A stretch of DNA of 64,000 nucleotides from a virus (taxonomy: Duplodnaviria > Heunggongvirae > Uroviricota > Caudoviricetes). The stretch is taken from positions 1-64,000 of IMG/VR virus record IMGVR_UViG_2541047850_000005; one strand, 5' to 3'. A program made the translations under genes and the position numbers. Below the pieces are notes generated by a model, which was given only the letters and a program-made list of their open reading frames with translations, searched no databases and was not told the origin of the DNA. Position 1 is the stretch's first letter, and every line of letters starts with the position of its first letter. Shown here one piece after another: positions 1,944-44,191 of the stretch.

Positions 1944-2258
1944 ACCTGTGTCCATATTACGTGGGTAGGATCAATTTTCACCTAACTGAATAGCTCGCAT
2001 ATTCGTGAACCGACCAGCATCAGGATCTAGCAGTGTAGAGCGAATATCCTTTTCAACTAGATCTATGGCTCGCTCTTCATCAGAATCACAACCTGTTAAT
2101 AGTAAAGCCGCTATTAACAATGCTAATGAGTATTTTTTATTCACCCCATTCTTCATGAAACTTATTCCATAATCAATTTTTGGTGGAATGTACGGTTAGT
2201 CTGTCTACGCATCATAGAGATGTATATAATGACCAAAAAAGACTTAAAAAGGTAGACT

Positions 2259-2777
2259 ATGGTTAAAGACATCACCTACGGCATACCGGCTGAAGTCTGG
2301 CCGCGAGACTACGAACATGCTGAGCGCACCTTGCTCTTCTGGCGGAGTGCAAAATTTCCTGTAAGAGTCACTCTCGAAGACGGCCAAGTGTTTTGCATGT
2401 ATGTCTACGGGCTATTGAGCGCAAGAAATAAGCTGAACCTCACACCAGATCCGCTTAGCAACACAAATCGTATAAGGCTCCCTCTTGAGCGCATTAGCAC
2501 AATTGAGTCGGGCATAGAAGAGGTTGACACTTCATTCACAGGTCGACTAACGCTAAACAATGAACAGATGGTTAATCAGCCATCACGTCGTGACTTTTTT
2601 AAGATATGTCGTCAGGCTTACCAAAACGGCAAATCTATAAGGGTCTACATGGCAGACGGTCGCGAAATTGAGGGAACGTCAGATGGCGTTGACGCCTGTC
2701 TAGTCACACTTAAGTTGGAAGACGGTAGAAAAATACTTATTTTCTTCGATTGGGTTGAACGAATCCTTCCGTTTTAA
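2259..2777 (+). CDS. hypothetical protein (172 aa, internally repeated)
   Basis: ORF with upstream AT-rich promoter-like region; no recognised domain. Confidence 0.5.
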   Translation: MVKDITYGIPAEVWPRDYEHAERTLLFWRSAKFPVRVTLEDGQVFCMYVYGLLSARNKLNLTPDPLSNTNRIRLPLERISTIESGIEEVDTSFTGRLTLNNEQMVNQPSRRDFFKICRQAYQNGKSIRVYMADGREIEGTSDGVDACLVTLKLEDGRKILIFFDWVERILPF

Positions 2778-3075
2778 TTTCTATAAGGGTAATAATCGGC
2801 TAAGTCCGGTTATTATTTTACATGCCATTCGTTTAACACTCATTCAATTCTCCCCCGTATAAATATATAAGGTCAAAAGCCGGAATTTATTATTTATTTA
2901 GGGAACACCTTCGACGATCTAACTTTTATTTCTAGGACTTTCATCCCTGCAAAAAAACTTAAAAAAAACACTTGCAATCTTTTTTCGCGTATCGATAATT
3001 GAACGCATCAGGAACGAGTGCAAAACACTTTCTTTCTTGAGTTAAATTTTAATATTTATACTAAGGAATAAAATC

Positions 3076-4258: not shown

Positions 4259-4844
4259 CGTTTCCAATACACCTACCATAACGCGCCAATGATGGCGCGT
4301 TTTTATTGTCTTTAACTCACTCCAACAACATAAAAATAAGCGCCAAAATAACGCCATAGACGCGATTTTATATCCTTGCCAGTACACACCCATTACTTAA
4401 CACATTAACGCGCTTAAAACGCGTTATATTGCGCTATAGAGTATGGTTAATCATTGGCTTTTAGTCTTGCTTTATGATCCGCGTTTATTTGTCGGCGCGG
4501 ATCGGCATTTTGTTTTGTTCCGTATCCGCTCGCGTATTATGTGCGCGTGATTTTTCACATAATCACACCACTTAATCACGTATGTGATTACGCTACGAAA
4601 GAAATCTGGATGTCTCAGGCGACGAAAGTCATAATAATTTTCCCCGCTCACCTGTCCGACAACCGCTGGTTGGATTCCACCAGCTTCCCGATGTTTTTTC
4701 TACATAAAGGCGAATGCAGCCGTTTCCCGAAAAAATCCTGGCCGTTTCCCGTCGGCTAATGAATACGTTCCTCGCCGTTTCTGAAAATTTCCCTACGGCA
4801 GCTGATGGATATAGAGAAAGGGCCGTTTCTGGCCCTCTTCTCAG

Positions 4845-5327
4845 TTACACGCCATCAAGGATGTGGATGCGGTTGCTTGCGTATACATTCAGCATAAAGT
4901 TAGCGCAAAACAGTTTCCATGTATCAACGCCAGCGGTATACGTAATGTTTTTGCATTTAATTGCATTGTTGGCGATCCGCATCCCCTGCGATACTGCTTC
5001 ATCGTCGGAAAATTTGAACGACGATTGAGTTTTAATCCAGACAGAAATCTGCGTAGCGAACTCAATCAGCTTGGACTGGCAGAATCGCCCGGAGCGCACC
5101 GGAAAGACGAACGTTCCGAATCCAGAATTTACCACATACGCTTTCTCAAATACCCGCGAGTAACGACGATTGCCAATGATGTCGCGTGCAATAATGCATT
5201 TTTCTTGTGCTGACAGTTCTACCGTCTCATTGTCGCGCCATGCACCAAGTACTCGTTTTTCAATGTCAGAGAACGTTACAGCGATATTGCCATGTGCGGG
5301 TGCGTTTACAGTAGCGATAAAATTCAT
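4845..5327 (-). CDS. hypothetical protein (160 aa)
   Basis: ATG at 5325..5327 with AAGGAA RBS; conserved AACAAATTGTTTTC motif upstream. Confidence 0.5.
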   Translation of the reverse strand: MNFIATVNAPAHGNIAVTFSDIEKRVLGAWRDNETVELSAQEKCIIARDIIGNRRYSRVFEKAYVVNSGFGTFVFPVRSGRFCQSKLIEFATQISVWIKTQSSFKFSDDEAVSQGMRIANNAIKCKNITYTAGVDTWKLFCANFMLNVYASNRIHILDGV

Positions 5328-5677
5328 GATTAATTCCTTATCGTAAATAACAAATTGTTTTCTTGTTGGCGTTAATTATCGTTGTACGAATAAGGCATCA
5401 AAGTGGAAAGTTGCGGTAGCCGGACGGGAACAGGTGGGTTTGTCGGTTGCCTGGAGGTAAGAGGTTGGTGTTTTTAGCCTGCGGGAAACAGGATGGTCAT
5501 TTAAGGCCACCAGCAGTGGTGGCCTTAATAATTATCGACCGATTACGCTAAGGATCTTTTCCTCAACTGATTTGTTGTTGCGACTAAACTGCCTTGCGTA
5601 TCTGATGACAGAAGAGGCGTTTTGCTTTCTGACTATCTCGGCTCTTTCCTTCAGGCGTTTCTTGAAATCGCCCATAT

Positions 5678-6052
5678 TTACCACCAGGCGCAGAAGGTCA
5701 GTCTGTTATTGTGAAAGTCGTGGTTCTTAATCAGCTCTTCCACAAGTTTTTTCAACTCCCCCACGTCATGCCAGTACCCTTCATCGTACTCCTGACTGCC
5801 GAAGAAAAAACCTTCACAGGTAGGTAAGTACTCTTCGCAGTTACTTTCGTTCATGTGCATCAAATGAGCTTTCAGAGCACAAATGTCATTCATCGTTAAT
5901 TCTAAAAGCTCACAATTTTTGACTTCACCTACGTTGCGTTCCATCCACCCAAAGAGAGCATTGAACTTACGGAAGTAAGCAACCTTCTTTCTGGATGCAT
6001 CGTTATTCAGATCGTTTTTTGGTTGCGTCTCAATGTAGATATCAAGTCCCAT
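5678..6052 (-). CDS. hypothetical protein (124 aa, Cys/His-containing)
   Basis: ATG start with AAGGAAACC RBS and upstream palindromic motif. Confidence 0.5.
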   Translation of the reverse strand: MGLDIYIETQPKNDLNNDASRKKVAYFRKFNALFGWMERNVGEVKNCELLELTMNDICALKAHLMHMNESNCEEYLPTCEGFFFGSQEYDEGYWHDVGELKKLVEELIKNHDFHNNRLTFCAWW

Positions 6053-6170
6053 GATGGTTTCCTTATCAAGTTGCTTTCAGTGAAAGCATTTTCACAAATC
6101 AGATAAGGCAGAAAACAAATTGTTATCGGGCATAAGAAAATGGCGCGGTTTACGCGCCATTCAAAGAGGA

Positions 6171-6566
6171 TTAAGCGAATACGCTTTCAGGGATTAAGGT
6201 GTCAGCAGGAATGCCGGAGGTAATGCGCAGACCATACTGACCAATCCAGGTAGTGTTAGTGTTCAGACTGGAAGCGAATACGGTGTTAACCATATTCATC
6301 ATGGTTTCAAACACCTCTTTATTCACCTTACGGAAGTAACTTTCAATTTTCAACAACAACGGGTCCGTTGCATCAAAAATGGACTGATATTGCGCCTCAT
6401 ATTCCCCGCCTGATGTATCTCCTTTACGCACAATAGTACTTGCCTGAACTTCAGTTCCAGTTTCGGTGTTGTACGTAACGACGGTGATTTTAGCTACATT
6501 CTTACCTTCGGCGCTTTCTGAAGCATAGTAGACATCAACTGTCAGGTTTTCTCGTTTAACGCTCAT
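6171..6566 (-). CDS. hypothetical protein (131 aa; start moved to internal ATG with GGAGAG RBS)
   Basis: ORF track 6171..6578; ATG at 6566 has a better Shine-Dalgarno. Confidence 0.5.
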   Translation of the reverse strand: MSVKRENLTVDVYYASESAEGKNVAKITVVTYNTETGTEVQASTIVRKGDTSGGEYEAQYQSIFDATDPLLLKIESYFRKVNKEVFETMMNMVNTVFASSLNTNTTWIGQYGLRITSGIPADTLIPESVFA

Positions 6567-6692
6567 ATCACTCTCCATAGTGTCTTGGTTATTTTTCTAT
6601 TTTATAGACATAGGTATGTACTTACAATACAAAAAAAACCCGTAAGGATGGCGGGGCTGTCGTACTGTCGACTAATTACCACTTGCACATTA

Positions 6693-7004
6693 TCAGGCTA
6701 TTGCCATCACTGATGCTCTCTGAATCTCTTGCTGGGCCACGCGGTTAACTTCCATCAAAGCCAGTTCGAGCTGATGTTCCGGCCACATTCTTTGAAATGC
6801 CATCCAGCCTTTTCCACGCTGGCGACGAACATTCATTACATAACGAGTAAAGGTGTTTTTATCGAAAGACACCGCTGTTTCACGGAACAGACGAATAGAG
6901 GTTCCATTGGCAACGATGTCCAGCAAAGTTAATTGAGCAACCAGCGCAGGCTTCTCTTTTCTCTTCTGGTCTTTGTCCAGACCAAGAACCAATGATTTTT
7001 TCAT
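6693..7004 (-). CDS. hypothetical protein (103 aa; ATG start MKKSLVLG)
   Basis: track ORF begins at a TTG; in-frame ATG at 7004 has GGAG RBS and the conserved motif just upstream. Confidence 0.5.
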   Translation of the reverse strand: MKKSLVLGLDKDQKRKEKPALVAQLTLLDIVANGTSIRLFRETAVSFDKNTFTRYVMNVRRQRGKGWMAFQRMWPEHQLELALMEVNRVAQQEIQRASVMAIA

Positions 7005-7157
7005 CACAACTCCGTAAACAACTTGTTTTCTCAATGTCGTAAATAATACCAGTAAGAAAACGGCTACAAAGCATATTGATCAGGTGCATGAGCGATATGC
7101 AGGTTCTTCCCTGCGGCTATAGAGAAATTAAGCCAGCAATGCTGGCTTTGGTTGGGA

Positions 7158-7487
7158 TTACGCGAATACCTCAAGAAACTCCTGAACGTCCCAATGCTGG
7201 ACGAGGTGAAGATAGACCTTAGAAATCACGTCATTTTCACTATCGCATGTGAAGTAGTACTTCTGGCTGCGGTTGTATGTGTCCACACAAAATTCGCTCA
7301 TATCCATAAAGTCAGCATCTTCACCCATGTCGCAAATCATCAAAGCAGGTGCGTCATCACGAGTCATCAGCTCCAGCACCCATATTGAATTAATCAGAGT
7401 GGAAGACCAACCTTCCAGCTCATAAAACTGGTCAAACTCTTTTTGAGTCAATTTCTTAATTTGGTTGATGTCGATATTTGCAAACAT
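7158..7487 (-). CDS. hypothetical acidic protein (109 aa; start MFANIDIN)
   Basis: in-frame ATG at 7487 preceded by AAGGAT RBS and the conserved motif. Confidence 0.5.
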   Translation of the reverse strand: MFANIDINQIKKLTQKEFDQFYELEGWSSTLINSIWVLELMTRDDAPALMICDMGEDADFMDMSEFCVDTYNRSQKYYFTCDSENDVISKVYLHLVQHWDVQEFLEVFA

Positions 7488-7626
7488 AAAGCAATCCTTA
7501 AACATGTTGTTTTCTGAATTACGTAAACAATACCAGTAAGAAAACGGCCACAAAGTATATCGTTACGGTGCTGCGCTGCCCCGGAGGTTAATAGCGACAA
7601 AAGCCACCGTGCTGGTGGCCTCACTC

Positions 7627-7845
7627 TTAATCTTGGTCGTCCGGGAACTCGCTGTGTACCGCGCCAACCAGCTCCCGCTTTTCATCTTCACTCAGCAGGT
7701 GCCAGATATCCTTCCCTTTGGGCGATTCCCCTTCTGCCGGGACGAACGACCACAACTTGCGGTACAACTCCGGCCCCACTGCATCCAGACACTCAGCCAG
7801 GGAATCCACGCCCCACACCTCAACCGTCACAGGCATCTTAATCAT
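7627..7845 (-). CDS. hypothetical small protein (72 aa)
   Basis: ORF with GAGGA RBS. Confidence 0.45.
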   Translation of the reverse strand: MIKMPVTVEVWGVDSLAECLDAVGPELYRKLWSFVPAEGESPKGKDIWHLLSEDEKRELVGAVHSEFPDDQD

Positions 7846-8439
7846 CTCTTCATCCTCACTTCGTTTCTATAACGTCTAAATATGCTGTTTACTTGTTGGT
7901 GTTATTATCGCAATAAGACAAAGGCGAAAAAGGATTTTATGTCGGGAAAGCCAGGCTGGGCAGTGAATATCCGGGAACGACACGAGAGCCAGTATTTACG
8001 ATATTCTGCTCTACGCACGCCGCGGGGCTGGTGGGCAGAATAATCCTCTCCCCGAAAACCTACTGAAATCGATTGTGACCCGCTGGCTGTCTGGCACAAT
8101 TACGCTGTATCTGGCATTCAGAGGGAATCCAGCGGTAAGCAAGTCAGCCTGCACGTGAGCGTCTCTCTTCTTCCCGCACATTACAGGTGGGTAGCTGCAA
8201 CTCTCTCTCGCTATACCGGTACGCCGCCGTTCCTGAACCGGCATCGAGCCTTTTCCCGAAATCCACACAGGCAACTCGACCGTTTCCCTGAAAATCCCCA
8301 GCCGTTTCTGTAGCGTATGCAACCTTTTCTCTGTATGGACCGAAGGCTGACCGTAGGGGTGTTACGGGGGATGATGGTAAGATGTTGAATAAATACGAAA
8401 AAGGAGGCGACACCCCTCCTTCCCTCCCCACTTATACAT

Positions 8440-9300
8440 ACCTTGCTTCTTCGCTATACATGTTGTGTTTTCTTCGTGTTTTATCTGTCTCAACCTCTCT
8501 ATAGGCGTTAATGCTTACTCCTTCCAGAACGTTCTATACGGCGACTATTTCTGTTGGTGAATTGGGTGTGTTGTTTTCTCTGTCGATGTATGTGGTTTCG
8601 TTCGTTTTGCGGTGGTTCTTCTATGGGGTGTTCTCGTCGTTTTGGTGATTGTTCTTCTCCGTGTATGGAGTAATGGCAGGTGGGCGATTCCTTTCGTTAT
8701 TGTGTTTGAGTTGTTTGTCTGGAGTGTGTGAAGGGCTTTTGTAGTTATTCGTGTATTGGGTAATGGCGTTTCCCGTGATTGTTATGTTTCGTGTCTTTTG
8801 GGATTGAGAGAAACCTTGCGGTTACAGGCTTCGTTGGGGTTTCAGCGGTTCAGGTGTTTCTTCGCTGTTTGGGTAATGGCGTGTCGTGGGTATCGCGCGT
8901 ATGAATGTTTTCGGATTGCCTGTGAAAGTTAGGTTGGTTATCCGGTAGCCTGGGAAGAAGAGGTGGGGTCTTTTCGGTAGCCTGCCATAAAGAGGTTGGT
9001 TGTTTTGGGTAATGGCATATGTGTTATTTGGTTGTTTTGTTATGCCTGAAAATAAGTTGTTTATATGGTTGTGTAACGCAACGGGAGCGATTTTGAGCGT
9101 GTGTTTTTGTTGGTAGTGTGTTGAGTCGTCTGTGGTGAAAATTGGACGCTGTGGAGCTGTCTGCTGCGTAGGTTTACGGGTATAAGAAGTGATGTGTGAA
9201 AACGTCAATTTTTTAGACCAAATCGGGAGAAAGCGTTGATGTTTCGTTGATCTGTTATTTAGTTGTTTTCTTATTGGTATAAACAACTGTAACCTATTGA
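8440..9300. repeat. strongly G+T-skewed non-coding tract with degenerate ~100-135 bp repeats (recurring GGGTAATGGC core)
   Basis: plus strand nearly devoid of C/A runs; GGGTAATGGC-like core recurs at ~8664, ~8762, ~8872, ~9008; CGGTAGCCTG repeated twice. Confidence 0.5.
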
Positions 9301-9414
9301 TATTTAAGGATGTGATTGCAGGCATGGAAGGGGAGTAGTGGCGATCAACGGATTCTTATAGAAAAGAATCAAATTGTGACCGCCATTATCAACGGTTTGA
9401 ATATGTTTGCAGAT

Positions 9415-9714
9415 TTACCAGTTCCAGCACTCAAGCCCTTCAACGACCGGCGCACCACAATCAAAATGTACAGAGTCAAAGCCTACATCAAGTACTTTCT
9501 GAATGTTAGCAATCGCGCCTTCGGATATACCATATCGACGCAAGTCGTCTTTCCAGACATCATCCTGTAACCCGGCGTGGACAATACAACCGCCATCAAT
9601 TTGTGAAACCCAATCCAGCTCATTGCTTGCGATCATGAATCGGCGAGCATCTTCCTCTGATGTATGAGATGAACTGATCAATGCCACCTGGTAGGCTTGG
9701 GTAATGTTCAACAT
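9415..9714 (-). CDS. hypothetical protein (99 aa; start MLNITQ)
   Basis: in-frame ATG with GGAG RBS; two copies of conserved motif upstream (9727..9790). Confidence 0.5.
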   Translation of the reverse strand: MLNITQAYQVALISSSHTSEEDARRFMIASNELDWVSQIDGGCIVHAGLQDDVWKDDLRRYGISEGAIANIQKVLDVGFDSVHFDCGAPVVEGLECWNW

Positions 9715-9823
9715 TTCAACCACTCCAAAACAAGTTGTTTTCTTATGTGGCTTATTATCTCTAACAACAAAAGGCAGAAAACAAATTGTTTTAGGTACTG
9801 TGTAAATCAGAAGGGATTGTGTC

Positions 9824-9854
9824 TATATGAAAATGCCCGGCGTGTTGCCGGGCA
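9824..9854 (-). terminator. rho-independent terminator downstream of metG
   Basis: hairpin ATGCCCGGC-N5-GCCGGGCAT followed by TTTT on the minus strand. Confidence 0.6.
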
Positions 9855-9875
9855 TTGCGAAGAGAGGTTGCTTAA

Positions 9876-11909
9876 TTACTTAACCTGGTGACCAGGTTTA
9901 GCACCAGCATCCGGGCTTAACAGGAAGATATCTTTCCCACCAGGACCAGCAGCCATCACCATGCCTTCTGAGATACCGAAACGCATTTTACGCGGAGCCA
10001 GGTTAGCCACCATAATGGTGTGACGACCAATCAGTGCCTGTGGGTCTGGATAAGCAGAACGAATGCCGGAGAAGACATTACGCTTTTCCCCACCGAGATC
10101 CAGTGTCAGACGCAGCAGTTTGTCAGAGCCTTCAACAAACTCCGCGTTTTCAATCAGCGCCACACGCAGGTCAACTTTGGCGAAGTCGTCAAAGGTGATG
10201 GTTTCCTGAATCGGGTCGTCAGCCAGTGGGCCAGTTACCGGTGCGGCTGTGGCTTTCACTTCTTCTTTGGATGCTTCCACCAGTGCTTCCACCTGTTTCA
10301 TATCGATGCGGTTATACAGCGCCTTGAACGGATTCACTTTGTGGCCCAGCAGCGGTTGCTGGATACCATCCCAGGTCAGTTCTGTATTGAGGAATGCTTC
10401 TGCGCGCTCGGTCAGTTTCGGCAGTACCGGTTTCAGGTAAGTCATCAGCACGCGGAACAGGTTAATGCCCATAGAGCAAATCGCCTGCAGATCGGCATCG
10501 CGACCTTCCTGCTTCGCCACCACCCACGGAGCCTGTTCATCGACATAGCGGTTAGCCAGGTCAGCCAGTGCCATGATTTCACGGATAGCTTTACCAAATT
10601 CGCGGCTTTCCCATGCTTCGCCAATCACTTCAGCGGCATCAGTAAAGGTTTTGTACAGTTGCGGGTCAGCCAGTTCGCTTGCCAGCACGCCGTCAAAACG
10701 CTTGTTGATAAAGCCTGCATTACGGGAGGCCAGGTTAACCACTTTGTTCACGATATCGGCATTCACTCGCTGAACGAAATCTTCCAGGTTGAGATCGATA
10801 TCATCAATGCGCGAAGAGAGTTTCGCAGTGTAGTAGTAACGCAGGCTGTCGGCGTCAAAATGATTCAGCCAGGTGCTGGCTTTAATGAACGTGCCGCGAG
10901 ACTTGGACATCTTCGCACCGTTCACCGTCACATAGCCATGAACAAACAGGTTGGTCGGCTTGCGGAAGTTGCTGCCTTCCAGCATGGCAGGCCAGAACAG
11001 GCTGTGGAAGTAAACGATATCTTTACCGATGAAGTGGTACAGCTCGGCGGTGGAGTCTTTCTTCCAGTATTCATCGAAGCTGGAGGTGTCGCCGCGTTTG
11101 TCGCACAGATTCTTGAAGGAACCCATGTAGCCAATCGGCGCGTCCAGCCAGACGTAGAAATATTTGCCCGGCGCGTTCGGAATTTCAAAACCGAAATAAG
11201 GGGCGTCGCGGGAGATATCCCACTGTTGCAGGCCAGATTCAAACCACTCCTGCATTTTATTTGCCACCTGCTCCTGCAACGCACCGCTGCGGGTCCATGC
11301 CTGCAGCATTTCGCTGAAAGAAGGCAGATCAAAGAAGAAGTGTTCGGAATCACGCATTACCGGCGTAGCACCAGAAACTACCGATTTCGGCTCGATCAGT
11401 TCAGTCGGGCTGTAAGTCGCGCCGCAGACTTCACAGTTATCGCCGTATTGATCTGGCGCTTTACATTTAGGGCAGGTGCCTTTTACAAAACGGTCCGGCA
11501 GGAACATGCCTTTTTCCGGGTCGTATAACTGAGAGATGGTGCGGTTTTTAATAAAACCGTTCTCTTTCAGGCGAGTATAAATAAGCTCGGACAACTGACG
11601 GTTCTCTTCGCTGTGCGTCGAGTGATAGTTGTCATAGCTGATGTTAAAGCCTGCAAAATCAGTCTGGTGTTCCTGACTCATTTCGCCAATCATCTGTTCC
11701 GGTGTGATACCAAGCTGCTGTGCTTTCAGCATGATCGGTGTGCCGTGGGCATCGTCGGCACAGATGAAATTAACCTCGTGGCCGCGCATTCGCTGGTAAC
11801 GAACCCAGACATCAGCCTGGATGTGCTCCAGCATATGGCCGAGGTGGATTGAGCCGTTAGCGTACGGCAGCGCGCACGTCACCAGAATTTTCTTCGCGAC
11901 TTGGGTCAT
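9876..11909 (-). CDS. metG: methionine--tRNA ligase
   Basis: 677-aa product starting [26 protein letters not shown] (HIGH motif), KMSKS motif, C-terminal tRNA-binding domain; track ORF extends upstream of the true ATG. Confidence 0.95.
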
Positions 11910-12066
11910 AGTAGGCATTACTTCTTTGTAGTGAAAAGGGGCTTGATAGTAACAAAATGGCCTTATGTCTGCCATGTGATAACAGCATTTCTCATAAATG
12001 ATTAAATGCCGTAGCTGGAGTACACTACAAGGCGACAATTGCGCAAATTAAAATAAAGGAGACGGG

Positions 12067-13167
12067 ATGAGCGAGTCCAAATCGCCGGATGCCCTGAGAG
12101 CAATGGTAGCCGGTACGCTGGCTAATTTTCAGCACCCAACCCTGAAACACAACCTGACTACGCTTAAAGCGTTACACCATGTTGCGTTGATGGATGACAC
12201 ACTGCATGTCGAACTAATCATGCCTTTCGTGTGGAATAAGCCTTTTGAAGACCTGAAAGAGCAATGTAGTGGTGATCTGCTCCGTATCACTGGCGCAAAG
12301 GCTATCGACTGGAAGCTGTCGTACAACATTGCCACGCTTAAGCGCGTCAAAAACCAACCAGGCATTAATGGCGTTAAGAACATTATCGCCGTCAGCTCAG
12401 GCAAGGGCGGCGTTGGTAAATCCTCCACGGCGGTAAACCTGGCACTGGCGTTGGCTGCTGAAGGTGCGAAAGTTGGTATTTTGGATGCCGATATCTACGG
12501 GCCATCAATTCCAACCATGCTTGGCGCGGAAAACCAACGTCCAACCTCACCGGACGGTACTCACATGGCACCGATTATGTCTCATGGACTGGCAACCAAT
12601 TCAATTGGTTATCTGGTAACTGACGACAATGCGATGGTGTGGCGTGGTCCGATGGCGAGCAAGGCGTTAATGCAGATGTTGCAGGAAACTCTATGGCCTG
12701 ATCTGGACTATCTCGTTCTCGATATGCCGCCGGGTACTGGTGATATTCAGCTGACGCTGGCGCAGAACATTCCTGTAACTGGTGCTGTTGTGGTAACTAC
12801 GCCGCAAGATATCGCGCTGATCGATGCGAAGAAAGGCATTGTGATGTTCGAAAAAGTCGAAGTGCCGGTACTGGGTATCGTCGAAAACATGAGTGTGCAT
12901 ATTTGCAGTAACTGCGGTCATCACGAGCCAATTTTTGGCACCGGTGGCGCACAGAAACTGGCCGAGAAATACAACACGCAGTTGTTAGGCCAAATGCCAC
13001 TTCATATCTCTCTTCGTGAAGATCTGGATAACGGAACACCAACCGTTATTAGTCGTCCAGATAGCGAATTTACGGCTATTTATCGTGACCTTGCAGATCG
13101 CGTTGCTGCCCAAATGTATTGGCAAGGTGAAGTAATACCTGGCGAAATCGCATTCCGCGCAGTGTGA
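12067..13167 (+). CDS. apbC: Fe-S cluster carrier ATPase ApbC/Mrp
   Basis: P-loop SSGKGGVGKSSTAVNLA, CxxC motif (HICSNCGH), divergent from metG as in enterobacteria. Confidence 0.9.
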   Translation: MSESKSPDALRAMVAGTLANFQHPTLKHNLTTLKALHHVALMDDTLHVELIMPFVWNKPFEDLKEQCSGDLLRITGAKAIDWKLSYNIATLKRVKNQPGINGVKNIIAVSSGKGGVGKSSTAVNLALALAAEGAKVGILDADIYGPSIPTMLGAENQRPTSPDGTHMAPIMSHGLATNSIGYLVTDDNAMVWRGPMASKALMQMLQETLWPDLDYLVLDMPPGTGDIQLTLAQNIPVTGAVVVTTPQDIALIDAKKGIVMFEKVEVPVLGIVENMSVHICSNCGHHEPIFGTGGAQKLAEKYNTQLLGQMPLHISLREDLDNGTPTVISRPDSEFTAIYRDLADRVAAQMYWQGEVIPGEIAFRAV

Positions 13168-42356: not shown

Positions 42357-42395
42357 CTGTAAGCCGCGCCACGACTGGTCTGAAGCCATGTTCAT

Positions 42396-42497
42396 GTATG
42401 CTGTCAGCGGTAATTGATAGTCTGTCAGCGGTTCACCGTATGCTGCCAACTGTTTTTGGTATTCTGTCAGCGGCAAATCAAGTATGCTGTCAGCGGT
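42396..42497. repeat. iteron cluster upstream of repA (about 4 copies of TATGCTGTCAGCGGT-like 15-mer)
   Basis: direct repeats at ~42398, 42421, 42461, 42483. Confidence 0.8.
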
Positions 42498-42517
42498 TGA
42501 ATGACAAAGGTGTCCAC

Positions 42518-43612
42518 ATGTCCACAAAAAATAAAAAAGGTAAAAATAACAAAGAAGTAGAAGATAACATCGACAACTTTGAAGAAGGTTCCCTTGAATT
42601 GTACACAGGGGAACTTGTCCCTAATAGCAACAATACAGTCCAACCAATTGCGTTGATGCGACTGGGGTTGTTCGTCCCCACGCTTAAGGGAACAAAATAC
42701 AGTAAACGTAACAAGCCAAATGAGATCGATGCTTCAAAGGAGCTTGTCCAGCTCGAAGTAGCCCGTTCTGAAGGCTATTCCGATATCAAGATAACCGGTC
42801 CTCGTCTCGACATGGATCATGATTTCAAAACGTGGGTGGGCGTTGTGCGTTCGCTGGCAGAATACGGCGAACCTAATGGTCGTGTCGAGTTAAGCATCAC
42901 GAAATTTGCGAAGTTTTGTGGCTATCCATCGTCACAGATCCGCAAAACACTCCGCGACCGGCTTACAAACAGTCTTTTGAAGATCATGCGTACAACTCTG
43001 TCTTTCCAGAGAACGTATGAAGAAAAGAACGTCGACGGCTCTAACAAGATCTCGCTTCTGATGGTGCACCTCATCAATAGCGTGGACTACAACGAGCAGA
43101 AAGATACGGTGGTGTTCTATGCAGAACCGAAGCTGGCCGAACTATATCGCTTTGACCATAAGGTTCTTTTGCAGTTAAAGGTTATCAATAAGCTACCACG
43201 CAAAGAAACAGCACAGGCTCTGTACACCTTCATCGAAAGTCTTCCAACCAAGCCTGCGCCGGTATCGCTTGCTCGATTGCGTGCGCGACTCAATTTGAGT
43301 AGCAGGAATGTCAGCTCGCAGAATCAGACTATACGTAACGGCTTAAAAGCTCTCCAAGATTTGGGCTATCTCGAATACAGCGAGATTAAGCGTGGGCGGT
43401 CGATCTATATCCAGATTCACAGCCGCAATCCAAAACTCAAAGTCGCACCGCCAAAACCTGAAGACATCGAACCCAAAAAACCAGATGAGAAAGCTGGGGA
43501 AATTGATGCCAAACAGAACATTATCAACAAGATAACCGAACTTTCGCAGAATTTGACGCCTGAAAATATCAAGATGATTGAGATCCTTTCCAATAGTCTC
43601 AAACTGCTTTGA
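42518..43612 (+). CDS. repA: iteron-type plasmid replication initiator (RepA/RepE-like)
   Basis: 364-aa basic protein flanked on both sides by iteron arrays; start set at ATG MSTKNKKGK (track ORF runs through the upstream iterons). Confidence 0.7.
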   Translation: MSTKNKKGKNNKEVEDNIDNFEEGSLELYTGELVPNSNNTVQPIALMRLGLFVPTLKGTKYSKRNKPNEIDASKELVQLEVARSEGYSDIKITGPRLDMDHDFKTWVGVVRSLAEYGEPNGRVELSITKFAKFCGYPSSQIRKTLRDRLTNSLLKIMRTTLSFQRTYEEKNVDGSNKISLLMVHLINSVDYNEQKDTVVFYAEPKLAELYRFDHKVLLQLKVINKLPRKETAQALYTFIESLPTKPAPVSLARLRARLNLSSRNVSSQNQTIRNGLKALQDLGYLEYSEIKRGRSIYIQIHSRNPKLKVAPPKPEDIEPKKPDEKAGEIDAKQNIINKITELSQNLTPENIKMIEILSNSLKLL

Positions 43613-44143
43613 TATGCTGTCAGCGGTGAAATGTATGCTATCAGCGGCTATTTTTCTGAAAAGTATGCTGTGAACGGTTAAAGATATGCTACCAGCGGTA
43701 TAGTGAGATAAACGTATGCTGTGAGCGGTAAATCATCTATCACCACTCAATGCTCTTTTATACCTCCCCAGTGGTTACTAACCTCGAAGAGTGCATTCCA
43801 TATAGGTTTGCGCTCACTAACATTCTATTCCCATTGCGCTGATTACTTGTAGTGAAAGGTATTTATTGCCTGCTGCTCCCTGATAGAACGTATGCTGTCA
43901 GCGGTGTTTTATTGAGGAATTTTTGTTTGGATATGCTATCAGCGGTAATTAATGGCATATGTCAGACCTTCGTATGCTGCCAGCGGTAATTTTGTTCTGG
44001 TTATACCCATACCGGTACACATTATTCATGCAATGTCTTAAGTATGCTGTCAGCGGTAAAAAATCGAGTAAAGTATGCTGTGAGCGGTGAGATAGACTCT
44101 CGATATGCTATCAGCGGCAGTTGATTGTGTATGCTGTCAGCGG
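43613..44143. repeat. iteron array downstream of repA (about 12 copies, incA-like copy-control locus)
   Basis: TATGCT(G/A)(T/C)(C/G)A(G/A)CGG(T/C) repeats at ~43613, 43634, 43663, 43684, 43715, 43891, 43932, 43973, 44043, 44073, 44104, 44129. Confidence 0.85.
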
Positions 44144-44191
44144 TGACGACTATGAAATATGACTGCGGAACGTGCCGCAGTCAGTTTGCAT

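What the first reader, a model, noticed from the sequence alone, without database searches (positions are those of the whole stretch)
8440..9300. ~850-bp G+T-skewed non-coding tract with degenerate repeats
The plus strand here is almost exclusively G and T (so the minus-strand transcript would be A/C-rich), with a GGGTAATGGC core recurring four times at ~100-135 bp spacing and CGGTAGCCTG duplicated. The only ORF in the track (8822..9325) is a low-complexity artefact of the skew. Such asymmetry is unusual for enterobacterial intergenic DNA and suggests a long structured or protein-binding RNA leader, a single-strand origin/promoter region, or a degenerate repeat array.
Basis: seen in the sequence. 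Interest (0 to 1): 0.5.

Follow-up and report, generated by a model that had tools for sequence, protein, structure and literature searches.

The report
Conserved C/A-rich untranslated tract, phage-plasmid
A roughly 1-kb stretch with no gene and a very lopsided base composition is conserved in hundreds of SSU5-type phage-plasmids of gut bacteria, sits just downstream of their swappable cargo genes, and most likely acts as a stop zone for transcription running out of that cargo, though this has not been tested.

Summary
G+T is 0.74 over 8546-9145, 7 SD above the window mean. GRGTAATGGC occurs 4 times and CGGTAGCCTG twice, only here.

The window is an SSU5/pHCM2-type phage-plasmid, 99.8% identical to Escherichia phage PhiR41_1. 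The tract is gene-free in RefSeq annotation. It is conserved at about 70% identity, skew included, in 835 plasmids from at least 8 enterobacterial genera.

No reading frame is conserved on either strand. No Rfam family matches. Neither strand folds better than shuffled sequence. The plasmid origin (repA with iterons) lies 34 kb away.

All neighbouring genes are on the minus strand. Read that way, the tract is about 900 nt of unstructured RNA with C far above G (A 39, C 30, G 13, U 17%). Two conserved hairpins bracket it, and both need G·U pairs, so they work only in that sense.

Homology between lineages ends at 9394-9403, where variable cargo begins. In published RNA-seq of E. coli LF82 (phage-plasmid Cyrano), the tract sits at the detection floor. 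The co-oriented gene just upstream is 10-80 times higher, and no intrinsic terminator lies between them.

Best reading (about 0.4): an oversized Rho-loading termination and insulator zone carrying regulator-binding repeats. Rivals: a lytic-phase non-coding RNA, or a DNA-level site. It is undescribed in the papers I could search.

The parts
9339..9385 (-). Entry hairpin at the upstream (right) edge of the conserved element. The outer stem is UGGCGGUCA/UGAUCGCCA (9 bp, one G·U pair). The inner stem differs between lineages.
   Evidence: RNA fold of 9290-9400 (minus sense) gives -24.6 kcal/mol, z -4.4. The outer stem is invariant in 21 of 22 distinct homologues. The inner stem is re-formed by different sequences in the E. 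coli, SSU5 and Klebsiella types. No U-run follows it, so it is not an intrinsic terminator.
9296..9338 (-). C-rich, nearly G-free run directly after the entry hairpin. It is the best rut-like segment.
   Evidence: On the minus sense, C is 34-52% and G 0-17% in every lineage, although the sequence itself differs between the E. coli, SSU5 and Klebsiella types. Composition is conserved where sequence is not.
9179..9279 (-). The most conserved block. It holds a promoter-like pair: TTGACG at 9208-9203, a 17/18-nt spacer, then TTATAC/TATACC at 9185-9179, with an A-tract just upstream. It also holds two RTCAACG direct repeats (9250-9233) and half of the operator-like palindrome (9279-9255).
   Evidence: Both hexamers are invariant in 28 homologues. 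The spacer varies in sequence but has a fixed length. The tool's sigma-70 scan does not call it, because the -10 lacks either A2 or T6. The region downstream of it is at the RNA-seq floor in LF82 lysogens, so if it is a promoter it is off in lysogeny.
8526..9178 (-). A/C-rich, G-poor, unstructured body of the tract. This is the G+T-rich plus strand that the finding describes.
   Evidence: G+T is 0.74. It forms the bulk of the longest C>G stretch in the window on either strand: 8526-9409, 884 nt with C-G >= 0.15 per 100 nt, against at most 320 nt elsewhere. No conserved ORF. No fold signal. No 3-nt or 10.5-nt periodicity. The skew is kept in all homologues.
9049..9063 (.). Copy of the scattered palindrome AAAACAANTTGTTTT (operator-like), inside the tract.
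   Evidence: There are 14 sites in the window against 0.7 expected, mostly just upstream of small minus-strand genes. This copy has 2 mismatches here and 1 in SSU5, and its column block is conserved.
8943..9006 (+). Tandem 32-bp units CGGTAGCCTG-N5-AAGAGGTGGGTCTTTT, 2.2 copies.
   Evidence: Copy number is 1-3 in homologues, and a mosaic junction lies here in L051. The same unit occurs 3 times at 5416-5493, upstream of another gene. Local alignment scores 58 against 27 +/- 4 for shuffles.
8655..8682 (+). Repeat motif copy 1: TTCTCCGTGTATGGAGTAATGGCAGGTG.
8745..8772 (+). Repeat motif copy 2: ...GTGTATTGGGTAATGGCG...
8858..8885 (+). Repeat motif copy 3: ...GCTGTTTGGGTAATGGCG...
9001..9028 (+). 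Repeat motif copy 4: ...TTTTGGGTAATGGCA...
   Evidence: Homologues carry 3-6 copies at 41-142-nt spacing.
8398..8424 (-). Exit hairpin at the downstream (left) end: GGGAAGGAGG-GGUGUCG-CCUCCUUUUU. In the E. coli lineage a U-rich tail follows it.
   Evidence: It is flagged terminator-like on the minus strand in the window and in Cyrano, but not in SSU5 or a Klebsiella relative. The stem is kept in nearly all homologues (27 of 28), with compensatory changes and many G·U pairs that could not pair on the plus sense.
8200..8350 (+). Adjacent array of CCAGCCKTTTCCC(T)GAAAA repeats. It lies outside the finding, and whether it belongs to the same element is uncertain.
   Evidence: There are 3-7 copies at 21/22/31/43-bp spacing in homologues. 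The same motif recurs at 4720-4830.

Best explanation
The tract is the body of a conserved, roughly 1-kb untranslated element (about 9400 to 8395, read on the minus strand) of SSU5-type phage-plasmids. It lies immediately downstream of the variable cargo (moron) island, in the same orientation as the cargo genes.

Proposed mechanism. RNA polymerase leaving the last cargo gene transcribes a conserved hairpin. It then transcribes about 900 nt of ribosome-free, unstructured RNA with C far above G. Such RNA is the preferred loading substrate of the termination factor Rho. Rho loads, catches the polymerase and releases the transcript. Cargo genes expressed in lysogeny are thereby kept from reading into the conserved block of small phage genes downstream. 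On this reading the element is a one-directional, Rho-type terminator or insulator.

The repeats embedded in it (the GTAATGGC motif, the 32-bp units, one operator-like palindrome, the GTTGAC repeats) are most likely binding sites for phage regulators. These could modulate read-through, or a promoter inside the element, during lytic growth.

Shown: the anatomy, the conservation, the absence of coding and of structure, the position at the cargo boundary, and the low RNA level in one lysogen.

Inferred: Rho dependence, the insulator role, and the role of the repeats.
For: 1. Composition. The minus sense of 9341-8440 is A 39, C 30, G 13, U 17% here. It is A 32-39, C 27-32, G 13-18, U 15-19% in all 24 distinct homologues. 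The C>G run of 884 nt is the longest in the window on either strand. It is also opposite to the rest of the genome, where the coding strand has G>C.

2. Untranslated. No frame is conserved on either strand. No PHROG matches the ORFs that some annotators call there.

3. Unstructured.

4. Composition conserved where sequence is not. The 43 nt after the entry hairpin differ between lineages but are 34-52% C and 0-17% G in all of them.

5. Sense. All flanking genes are on the minus strand in every annotated relative. The entry and exit hairpins contain G·U pairs, so they exist only in the minus sense.

6. Position. Homology between lineages stops at 9394-9403, and the genes beyond differ.

7. Expression. 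In LF82/Cyrano RNA-seq (S1 Table of PMC9928086), CYRAN_103 corresponds to window 8929-9285. Its log2(fpkm+5) is 2.32-4.27 in 10 samples, where 2.32 is the floor. The co-oriented gene CYRAN_102 ends 111 nt upstream of CYRAN_103 and reads 5.6-9.2. The pattern scan finds no intrinsic terminator between them.

8. Not needed for plasmid replication. repA and its iterons lie at about 42.4-44.1 kb. The first 50 kb of the defective relative pMT1, which include the syntenic junction, contain no such tract.
Against: - A rut site needs about 80 nt, and this element has about ten times that.
- Sequence, not only composition, is conserved: about 70% between genera, like the neighbouring genes at 65-89%. 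Specific repeats are kept as well. A pure Rho-loading role does not require either.
- YC dinucleotides are not enriched beyond what composition gives (92 against 102 +/- 6 in shuffles).
- The substitution spectrum shows no clear excess of composition-preserving changes.
- A strongly conserved promoter-like element lies inside the element. That is odd for a mere terminator.
- The RNA-seq evidence comes from one strain and from gene-level counts whose strandedness is not stated. It covers only the right third of the tract. Low RNA could also reflect instability.
- Rho dependence was not tested, and cannot be tested here.
Confidence: 0.4

Rival explanations
1. It is a lytic-phase non-coding RNA. 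The conserved promoter-like element (TTGACG 9208-9203 with TTATAC/TATACC 9185-9179) is repressed in lysogeny. After induction it drives an unstructured C/A-rich RNA of about 775 nt that ends at the exit hairpin. The RNA would display 4-6 copies of GCCAUUACYC... and 2-3 copies of ACCCACCUCUU-N5-CAGGCUACCG in single-stranded form. It would act as a sponge or decoy for an RNA-binding factor: Rho itself, a phage protein, or a GU-rich sRNA such as GcvB.
For: - The hexamers are invariant while the spacer varies in sequence but not in length, across 28 homologues, and an A-tract lies upstream.
- A sense-specific hairpin stands at the end.
- Operator-like palindrome copies flank and lie inside the unit, which fits repression in lysogens.
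- Silence in lysogens is compatible with this reading.
- Repeated motifs in an unstructured context resemble sponge RNAs.
Against: - There is no transcript evidence at all.
- The -10 is weak and is not called by the scan.
- Hfq-type (ARN)n, AAnAAnAA and GcvB-target motifs are not enriched over composition shuffles. GcvB R1 duplex energies are no better than for shuffles.
- GGA motifs are few.
- The 32-bp unit also occurs in a spacer upstream of another gene, which points to DNA binding rather than RNA binding.
- An untranslated C-rich RNA would itself be terminated early by Rho.
Confidence: 0.2
2. It is a DNA-level cis element. It would be an array of binding sites for phage proteins: an enhancer or part of the unknown lytic replication origin, a priming zone for the phage toprim primase on the G+T-rich strand, or a preferred recombination zone next to the cargo island.
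For: - Same-orientation repeats vary in copy number.
- The 32-bp unit and the CCKTTTCCC repeats recur in other non-coding spacers.
- The adjacent CCKTTTCCC array shows spacings in multiples of about 10.5-11 bp.
- The element encodes its own DnaE, DnaB-like helicase, toprim protein, RNase HI and ligase, but no lytic origin is annotated in the record examined or mentioned in the papers I could search.
- The tract is absent from the first 50 kb of the defective relative pMT1, which include the syntenic junction.
- It is silent in lysogens.
- Mosaic and deletion junctions fall in the repeats.
Against: - Double-strand binding does not explain a 900-nt strand asymmetry.
- There is no AT-rich unwinding element (GC 0.42-0.52 across the tract).
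- No initiator gene is adjacent. The neighbours are PHROGs of unknown function.
- The GTAATGGC copies are irregularly spaced at 41-142 bp, with no helical periodicity.
- There are no ssDNA hairpins.
- There is no Chi site inside the tract, although Chi is tenfold enriched in the window.
- Minus-sense transcription would give C-rich RNA, which disfavours R-loops.
Confidence: 0.2
3. It has no function of its own. It would be a decaying tandem-repeat or promoter-module remnant that hitch-hikes between conserved genes, its skew being a by-product of repeat composition or of mutation bias.
For: - Parts resemble degenerate copies of promoter or operator modules found elsewhere.
- Copy number is unstable.
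- The substitution spectrum is not clearly composition-preserving.
Against: - It is present with the same skew in 835 plasmids of at least 8 genera.
- It is as conserved as the neighbouring genes, and more conserved than the adjacent spacers 8100-8200 and 8440-8520.
- It is more widely distributed than one flanking gene tested: the 7158-7553 protein is confined to Escherichia and Shigella.
- The two bracketing hairpins are maintained by compensatory changes.
Confidence: 0.1
4. The plus strand encodes a series of small hydrophobic peptides, each starting at the ATG of the TAATGGC motif, in the manner of type I toxins.
For: Each motif supplies an ATG-GC start. Plus-sense ORFs of 10-63 aa follow, and some are similar between lineages, for example MAGALFSSFT and MAVGRF(C/S)CSPHMK.
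Against: - Variable columns are spread almost evenly over codon positions ([39, 44, 51] of 63 codons, and similar for the others). ORF lengths change between close relatives.
- The SD-like GGAG lies only 2 nt from the ATG.
- PGAP calls nothing there, and the SSU5_108 ORF matches no PHROG.
- There is no 3-nt periodicity.
Confidence: 0.03

Closest known systems
Rho-dependent terminators and rut sites, e.g. lambda tR1 with nutR (boxB hairpin flanked by rutA and rutB); the comparison is from textbook knowledge
   Same: The RNA is untranslated, C-rich, G-poor and unstructured, and lies downstream of an expressed gene in the same orientation. A conserved hairpin stands at the entry and a second hairpin (a possible pause site) at the exit. 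RNA level drops without an intrinsic terminator.
   Different: It is about ten times longer than known rut regions. It carries conserved multi-copy sequence motifs and a promoter-like element. No boxA or boxB match was found; the boxA-like CGCUCAAA at about 9090 matches only the first four bases of the core. Rho dependence is untested.
Long 5' leaders subject to Rho-dependent premature termination (rpoS, mgtA/mgtCBR, rho leaders); from literature knowledge
   Same: It is a long untranslated region in which Rho access could be regulated.
   Different: A hairpin separates it from the next genes, and in the E. coli lineage that hairpin is terminator-like. Those genes also have their own promoter and operator modules. 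The tract follows genes rather than preceding a single regulated gene.
Protein- or sRNA-sponge RNAs (CsrB/RsmZ, CrcZ, prophage AgvB anti-GcvB); from literature knowledge
   Same: It has multiple copies of a short motif in a long non-coding sequence. The C/A-rich composition resembles GcvB targets and CrcZ.
   Different: No GGA, AAnAAnAA or ARN motif is enriched, and no specific GcvB complementarity is seen. It is not expressed in lysogens. No Rfam family matches. Its motifs sit in unpaired sequence, whereas CsrB presents its motifs in hairpin loops.
Iteron-type replication origins (RepFIB, P1 oriR, lambda ori; the P4 ori plus crr arrangement)
   Same: It has direct repeats in one orientation. 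The neighbouring CCKTTTCCC array has about 22-bp phasing, and a second cluster lies 3.5 kb away.
   Different: The real RepFIB origin of this element is at about 42.4-44.1 kb, with different iterons. The GTAATGGC repeats are irregularly spaced. There is no AT-rich element, no adjacent initiator gene, and the strand skew is left unexplained.
RfaH ops element (GGCGGTAGnnTG); consensus recalled from the literature
   Same: CGGTAGCCTG matches ops positions 3-8 and 11-12, and it is duplicated and conserved.
   Different: It lies on the plus strand, which is the template strand for the minus-strand genes, whereas ops acts on the non-template strand. G1 and G2 are missing. SSU5 copy A reads CTGTAGCCTG. 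No plus-strand operon follows it.

Membership tests
Rho-dependent terminator (rut region) | At least about 80 nt of C-rich, G-poor RNA | tested here: met
   Minus sense: C 30-33%, G 12-13% over 620-900 nt. C-G is >= 0.15 per 100 nt continuously from 9409 to 8526, the longest such run in the window.
Rho-dependent terminator (rut region) | RNA free of stable secondary structure and of translating ribosomes | tested here: met
   MFE is -125 kcal/mol per 796 nt, z -1.3. The consensus structure has 53 pairs in 906 columns. No ORF is conserved in any frame.
Rho-dependent terminator (rut region) | Transcript level falls across the site without an intrinsic terminator | tested here: inconclusive
   In published LF82/Cyrano data, CYRAN_102 reads 5.6-9.2 and CYRAN_103 reads 2.3-4.3 in log2(fpkm+5). 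No terminator-like site lies between them. This is one strain, with gene-level counts whose strandedness is not stated.
Rho-dependent terminator (rut region) | Termination depends on Rho (bicyclomycin, rho or nusG mutants; Rho ATPase activation by the RNA) | not testable with these tools
   It needs wet-lab work or new RNA-seq.
Intrinsic (Rho-independent) terminator, exit hairpin 8424-8398 | GC-rich hairpin followed directly by a U-run | tested here: inconclusive
   Met in the window and in Cyrano. The hairpin is conserved, but the U-run criterion is not met in SSU5 or in a Klebsiella relative.
Known structured RNA family (Rfam) | Match to a covariance model | tested here: not met
   There are 0 matches at E <= 1 in 5000-13000 on both strands.
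Sponge RNA of CsrB, CrcZ or AgvB type | Enrichment of the factor's motif (GGA in loops; AAnAAnAA or ARN; GcvB-complementary CACAACA) and expression | tested here: not met
   Motif counts are at or below those of composition shuffles. GcvB R1 duplex statistics are no better than for shuffles. The tract is at the RNA-seq floor in lysogens. Lytic-phase expression is untested.
Iteron-containing replication origin | Regularly phased iterons beside an initiator gene, plus an AT-rich unwinding element | tested here: not met
   GTAATGGC copies are at 41-142-bp spacing with no 10.5-bp periodicity. The neighbouring genes have unknown function. GC is 0.42-0.52 across the tract. The real repA origin is elsewhere. 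The adjacent 8200-8350 array is phased but lies outside the tract.
Single-strand initiation site or single-strand promoter (ssi, Frpo) | Extensive imperfect hairpin formed by one DNA strand | tested here: not met
   ssDNA folds are -34.5 and -26.2 kcal/mol per 621 nt, z -1.1 and -1.2.
RfaH ops / JUMPStart | GGCGGTAGnnTG on the non-template strand in the leader of a long operon | tested here: not met
   Eight of ten specified positions match, but the site is on the plus strand. That is the template strand for all local genes, and no plus-strand operon follows.
Protein-coding gene or small-ORF array | A conserved frame with third-position bias, and indels in multiples of three | tested here: not met
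   Gap lengths mod 3 are 61/97/28. Frames shift between relatives. Codon-position variability is flat. No PHROG matches.
Sigma-70 promoter (9208-9179, minus strand) | -35 and -10 hexamers at 16-18-bp spacing, and an active transcription start | tested here: inconclusive
   TTGACG, then 17/18 nt, then TTATAC/TATACC. The hexamers are invariant and the spacer is variable but of fixed length. It fails the scan's -10 rule. No RNA is seen downstream of it in lysogens.

The most novel reading that the evidence does not exclude
The tract is transcribed from its own repressor-controlled promoter only after induction. It would yield an unstructured C/A-rich long non-coding RNA of about 0.8 kb. The RNA would act as a decoy that ties up Rho, or another single-strand RNA-binding host factor, through its repeated motifs. 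The result would be genome-wide anti-termination during lytic growth of SSU5-type phage-plasmids: an RNA counterpart of the protein Rho inhibitor Psu of P4.
Probability: 0.1. Interest if true: 0.8.

Novelty: new variant of a known kind. Interest (0 to 1): 0.55.

Why it matters
SSU5/pHCM2-type phage-plasmids are common. This element is in 243 of 5,426 complete E. coli genomes (4.5%) and in 835 PLSDB plasmids of Klebsiella, Escherichia, Enterobacter, Salmonella, Citrobacter and Cronobacter. They carry cargo such as dfrA51, metG and toxin-antitoxin genes.

Almost nothing has been published about how they are regulated. This is their largest conserved non-coding element, and none of the papers I could search mentions it.

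If it is a Rho-type insulator, it would explain how these elements can swap and express cargo genes at one hotspot without switching on neighbouring phage genes. It would also be a compact, orientation-specific transcription stop module with possible use in engineering.

If instead it is a lytic RNA or an origin, it would identify a missing piece of the phage-plasmid life cycle. Either way, deletions, reporters and bicyclomycin RNA-seq in existing strains (LF82/Cyrano, MG1655/PhiR41_1) can test it directly.

Tried and rejected
- Rfam at E <= 1: nothing.
- Protein coding on either strand: rejected.
- Structured RNA or ssDNA hairpins: rejected.
- Plasmid origin: it lies elsewhere.
- GcvB-sponge and Hfq/CrcZ-type motif enrichment: not above composition.
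- Helical or codon periodicity: none.
- Composition-preserving substitution bias: not clear.
- A long-range stem pairing CUUAUAC (9187-9181) with GUAUAAG (8437-8431): it is only 6-8 bp. One lineage shows a compensatory change and another breaks the pair. The 5' arm overlaps the putative -10. I left it as a curiosity.
- RfaH ops resemblance: wrong strand.
- Chi cluster in the tract: none inside it.
- Transcript-like contigs for the artefactual ORF in public assemblies: only genomic contigs were returned.
- Genome-contig scan: only one true hit, Buttiauxella gaviniae.
- The preprint on PhiR41_1 (10.64898/2026.08.19.745698) could not be opened.
- Literature searches for pHCM2 or SSU5 with sRNA, transcriptome or intergenic terms: nothing on this region.
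- Pfam and PHROGs on the neighbouring small genes: all of unknown function.
Full report
**Where the window comes from.** The region 8400-9350 matches only plasmids among 5,426 complete E. coli genomes. It is found in 243 genomes, with 0 chromosomal places, at 95-99% identity in most. It is 99.8% identical to Escherichia phage PhiR41_1 and 96.6% to phage Cyrano of E. coli LF82. It is about 70% identical to Salmonella phage SSU5 and to Klebsiella phage-plasmids. In PLSDB, 835 plasmids match: Klebsiella 427, Escherichia 224, Enterobacter 90, Salmonella 49, Citrobacter 25, Cronobacter 9 and others. Most are about 105-120 kb, non-mobilizable and typed IncFIB. The window is therefore an SSU5/pHCM2-type phage-plasmid. 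It carries metG and apbC as cargo just to the right of the finding.

**The observation.** G+T is 0.70 over 8440-9300 and 0.74 over 8546-9145. The window mean is 0.503 with sd 0.033, and the next best value is 0.59. GRGTAATGGC occurs four times (8668, 8758, 8871, 9007) against 0.24 expected. CGGTAGCCTG occurs twice against 0.06 expected. All copies are in the tract and on one strand. One is a 24-28-nt motif, TTCTCCGYRTATKGRGTAATGGCR. The other is a 32-bp tandem unit. The conserved, skewed element also extends from about 8395 to 9400.

**Conservation.** I collected 42 full-length homologues from annotated records and IMG/VR, of which 28 are non-redundant at 97%. All but the partly divergent L021 keep the skew, with G+T 0.63-0.68 over the central 650 nt; L021, homologous only over 8836-9394, reads 0.59. 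The tract aligns with few gaps. Its majority-base conservation is 0.7-0.9. That is higher than the neighbouring spacers 8100-8200 and 8440-8520. It is similar to the neighbouring genes, at 70% against 65-89% between the window and SSU5. It is also more widespread than one flanking gene. The protein of 7158-7553 is confined to Escherichia and Shigella, and the genes to the right differ in every lineage. Homology between lineages ends at 9394-9403 in every comparison. The tract therefore sits exactly at the edge of a variable cargo island.

**What it is not.**
- It is not coding. Long open frames on the minus strand simply reflect the lack of T and G. Their positions and phases differ among homologues, including close E. 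coli relatives. Gap lengths mod 3 are 61/97/28.
- On the plus strand each TAATGGC motif offers an ATG followed by a 10-63-aa ORF. However, variable columns are spread evenly over codon positions and ORF lengths change. There is no 3-nt periodicity.
- PGAP annotates nothing here. The ORFs that other annotators call match no PHROG.
- It is not a known RNA family.
- It is not structured. The minus RNA has z -1.3 and the plus RNA z +2.2. The ssDNA folds have z about -1.1 and -1.2. The consensus fold of 13 diverse sequences has 53 pairs in 906 columns.
- It is not the plasmid origin. repA, flanked by at least 13 GTATGCTGTCAGCGGT iterons, lies at about 42.4-44.1 kb.
- It is not required for plasmid replication. 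In the defective relative pMT1 of Yersinia pestis, gene order around the syntenic position suggests a large deletion. No skewed tract occurs in the first 50 kb of that plasmid, which include the syntenic junction.

**Anatomy, read on the minus strand.** This is the sense of all neighbouring genes.
1. Entry hairpin, 9385-9339. It has an invariant 9-bp outer stem and an inner stem re-formed by different sequences in different lineages (z -4.4 here). No U-run follows it.
2. A C-rich, almost G-free run, 9338-9296. Its sequence differs between lineages but its composition does not: C 34-52%, G 0-17%.
3. The most conserved block, 9279-9179. It contains GTTGAC-type repeats in both orientations. It also contains a promoter-like pair: TTGACG, then 17/18 nt, then TTATAC/TATACC. 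The hexamers are invariant and the spacer is variable but of fixed length. The simple sigma-70 scan does not accept it.
4. The A/C-rich body. It carries one copy of the palindrome AAAACAANTTGTTTT, 2-3 copies of the 32-bp unit and 3-6 copies of the GTAATGGC motif. Spacing is irregular and copy number varies.
5. Exit hairpin, 8424-8398. It is kept with compensatory changes in nearly all homologues (27 of 28). It is terminator-like only in the E. coli lineage.

Both hairpins rely on G·U pairs, which would be A·C mismatches on the other strand. The functional sense is therefore the minus one. The minus-sense C>G excess runs for 884 nt. The longest such run elsewhere in the window, on either strand, is about 320 nt. 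It is opposite to the G>C bias of the coding strand in the rest of the element.

**Links to the rest of the genome.**
- The palindrome occurs 14 times in the window against 0.7 expected, mostly just upstream of small minus-strand genes. It is probably the operator of the phage repressor.
- The 32-bp unit recurs three times at 5416-5493, in the spacer upstream of gene 4845-5327. Local alignment scores 58 against 27 +/- 4 for shuffles.
- The CCKTTTCCC repeats next to the tract (8200-8350, spaced 21/22/31/43 bp) recur at 4720-4830.

The tract is therefore wired into the element's regulatory vocabulary. This suggests that at least some of its repeats are DNA-binding sites.

**Expression.** The only relevant published data I found are from E. 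coli LF82, whose plasmid Cyrano carries the tract (PMC9928086). In their S1 Table, CYRAN_103 (Cyrano 94381-94737) corresponds to window 8929-9285. That covers the promoter-like element and the first 250 nt of the body. Its log2(fpkm+5) is 2.32-4.27 in ten samples from five conditions, and 2.32 is the floor. CYRAN_102 is the co-oriented gene that ends 111 nt upstream of CYRAN_103. It reads 5.6-9.2 and is listed as a moron expressed in lysogeny. CYRAN_104 (window 8035-8439) reads 2.6-4.7. The scan finds no intrinsic terminator between CYRAN_102 and the tract. The strandedness of the counting is not stated. Even so, in lysogens the tract yields no stable RNA, and transcription leaving the upstream moron does not accumulate across it.

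**Interpretation.** The reading that explains most of this is a Rho-type termination or insulator zone. Three properties are the hallmarks of Rho loading: the RNA is ribosome-free, unstructured, and has C far above G. Its position fits a barrier between cargo expressed in lysogeny and the conserved phage genes: it lies directly downstream of the swappable cargo island, in the cargo's orientation. The sense-specific hairpins fit too. So does the conservation of composition where sequence has diverged, and so does the RNA drop in LF82. The nearest textbook analogue is lambda nutR/tR1, where a hairpin sits within rut sequences.

I put this at about 0.4, for four reasons:
- The element is about ten times longer than a rut site needs to be.
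- Its sequence and repeats are conserved, not just its composition.
- YC dinucleotides and the substitution spectrum show no extra signal.
- It contains a conserved promoter-like element.

Rho dependence itself is untested.

**Rivals.**
- A lytic-phase non-coding RNA made from the internal promoter, acting as a sponge or decoy (0.2). Tests for Hfq, CrcZ or CsrA motifs and for GcvB complementarity gave nothing beyond composition. There is no transcript evidence.
- A DNA-level site, such as a lytic-origin component, a priming zone or a recombination zone (0.2). This fits the repeats and the neighbouring phased array. It does not explain the asymmetry, and there is no AT-rich element and no adjacent initiator.
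- A functionless remnant (0.1). This is hard to square with the breadth and degree of conservation.
- Small plus-strand peptides (0.03).

**Novelty and value.** I found no description of this element in the papers searched. If the main reading is right, it is a new, unusually large and repeat-bearing variant of a known kind of signal. It would matter for understanding how a very common family of phage-plasmids tolerates and expresses cargo. The decisive experiments are simple: bicyclomycin RNA-seq, orientation-specific reporter polarity, transcription-start mapping after induction, origin mapping, and a clean deletion. Strains for them already exist.

Noticed in passing
window 5347, 6112, 7015, 7499, 9049, 9727, 9778, 13701, 18784, 23327, 24056, 34274, 45727, 59404: The palindrome AAAACAANTTGTTTT occurs 14 times against 0.7 expected. 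Most copies lie 5-25 nt upstream of the SD or start of small minus-strand genes, often with a GATAAT or TGnTATTAT -10 just upstream. It is probably the scattered operator of the phage-plasmid repressor, in the manner of P1.
   Followed up: partly
window 4677-55037 (13 sites): Chi (GCTGGTGG) occurs 13 times in 64 kb against 1.4 expected, in both orientations. That is a host-like density. Two plus-strand copies (7611, 8027) lie just left of the tract and none lies inside it.
   Followed up: no
window 42390-44145: This is a RepFIB-type replicon. repA is flanked on both sides by at least 13 copies of GTATGCTGTCAGCGGT at 21-70-bp spacing. It is the true plasmid origin.
   Followed up: partly
window 8200-8350 and 4720-4830: There are two clusters of CCKTTTCCC(T)GAAAA repeats, 3.5 kb apart. 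Spacings are multiples of about 10.5-11 bp (3-7 copies in homologues). They bracket the block of small genes. They could be regulator sites or an origin-like pair of the P4 ori/crr kind.
   Followed up: partly
window 5416-5493: Three copies of the tract's 30-32-bp unit (GTAGCCTG-N5-AAGAGGTGGGT) lie between a bidirectional terminator hairpin (5500-5530) and the promoter or operator of gene 4845-5327.
   Followed up: partly
window 9876-12038 and the gene to its right: Full-length, host-like metG (methionyl-tRNA synthetase) and apbC/mrp are carried as cargo of the phage-plasmid. In LF82/Cyrano the metG copy is barely expressed, while apbC and the S24 peptidase gene are morons.
   Followed up: no
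L051 (IMGVR_UViG_2671180357_000002) 2215-3000; L039 1893-1972; L014 2069-2892; L008 1389-2110: Rearrangements fall inside the tract. L051 is E. coli-type to the right of about 8990 and SSU5-type to the left, with the junction in the 32-bp repeats. L014 has three 32-bp units. L008 lacks two segments between repeats. In L039 the cargo junction removes the 5' arm of the entry hairpin.
   Followed up: partly
L004 (K. pneumoniae pQDE2-C, 214 kb) 6001-6466, and similar hits H67-H72: Large Klebsiella plasmids of 158-261 kb carry only the right part of the element (window 8943-9403). In pQDE2-C, the one examined, it lies next to IS5. It looks like a remnant of recombination with a Klebsiella phage-plasmid.
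   Followed up: partly
window 8431-8437 (+) and 9181-9187 (-): CTTATAC occurs in inverted orientation at both ends of the tract. It could pair as a 6-8-bp closing stem. One lineage shows a C-G to U-A double change and another breaks the pair. The right copy overlaps the putative -10. Unexplained.
   Followed up: partly
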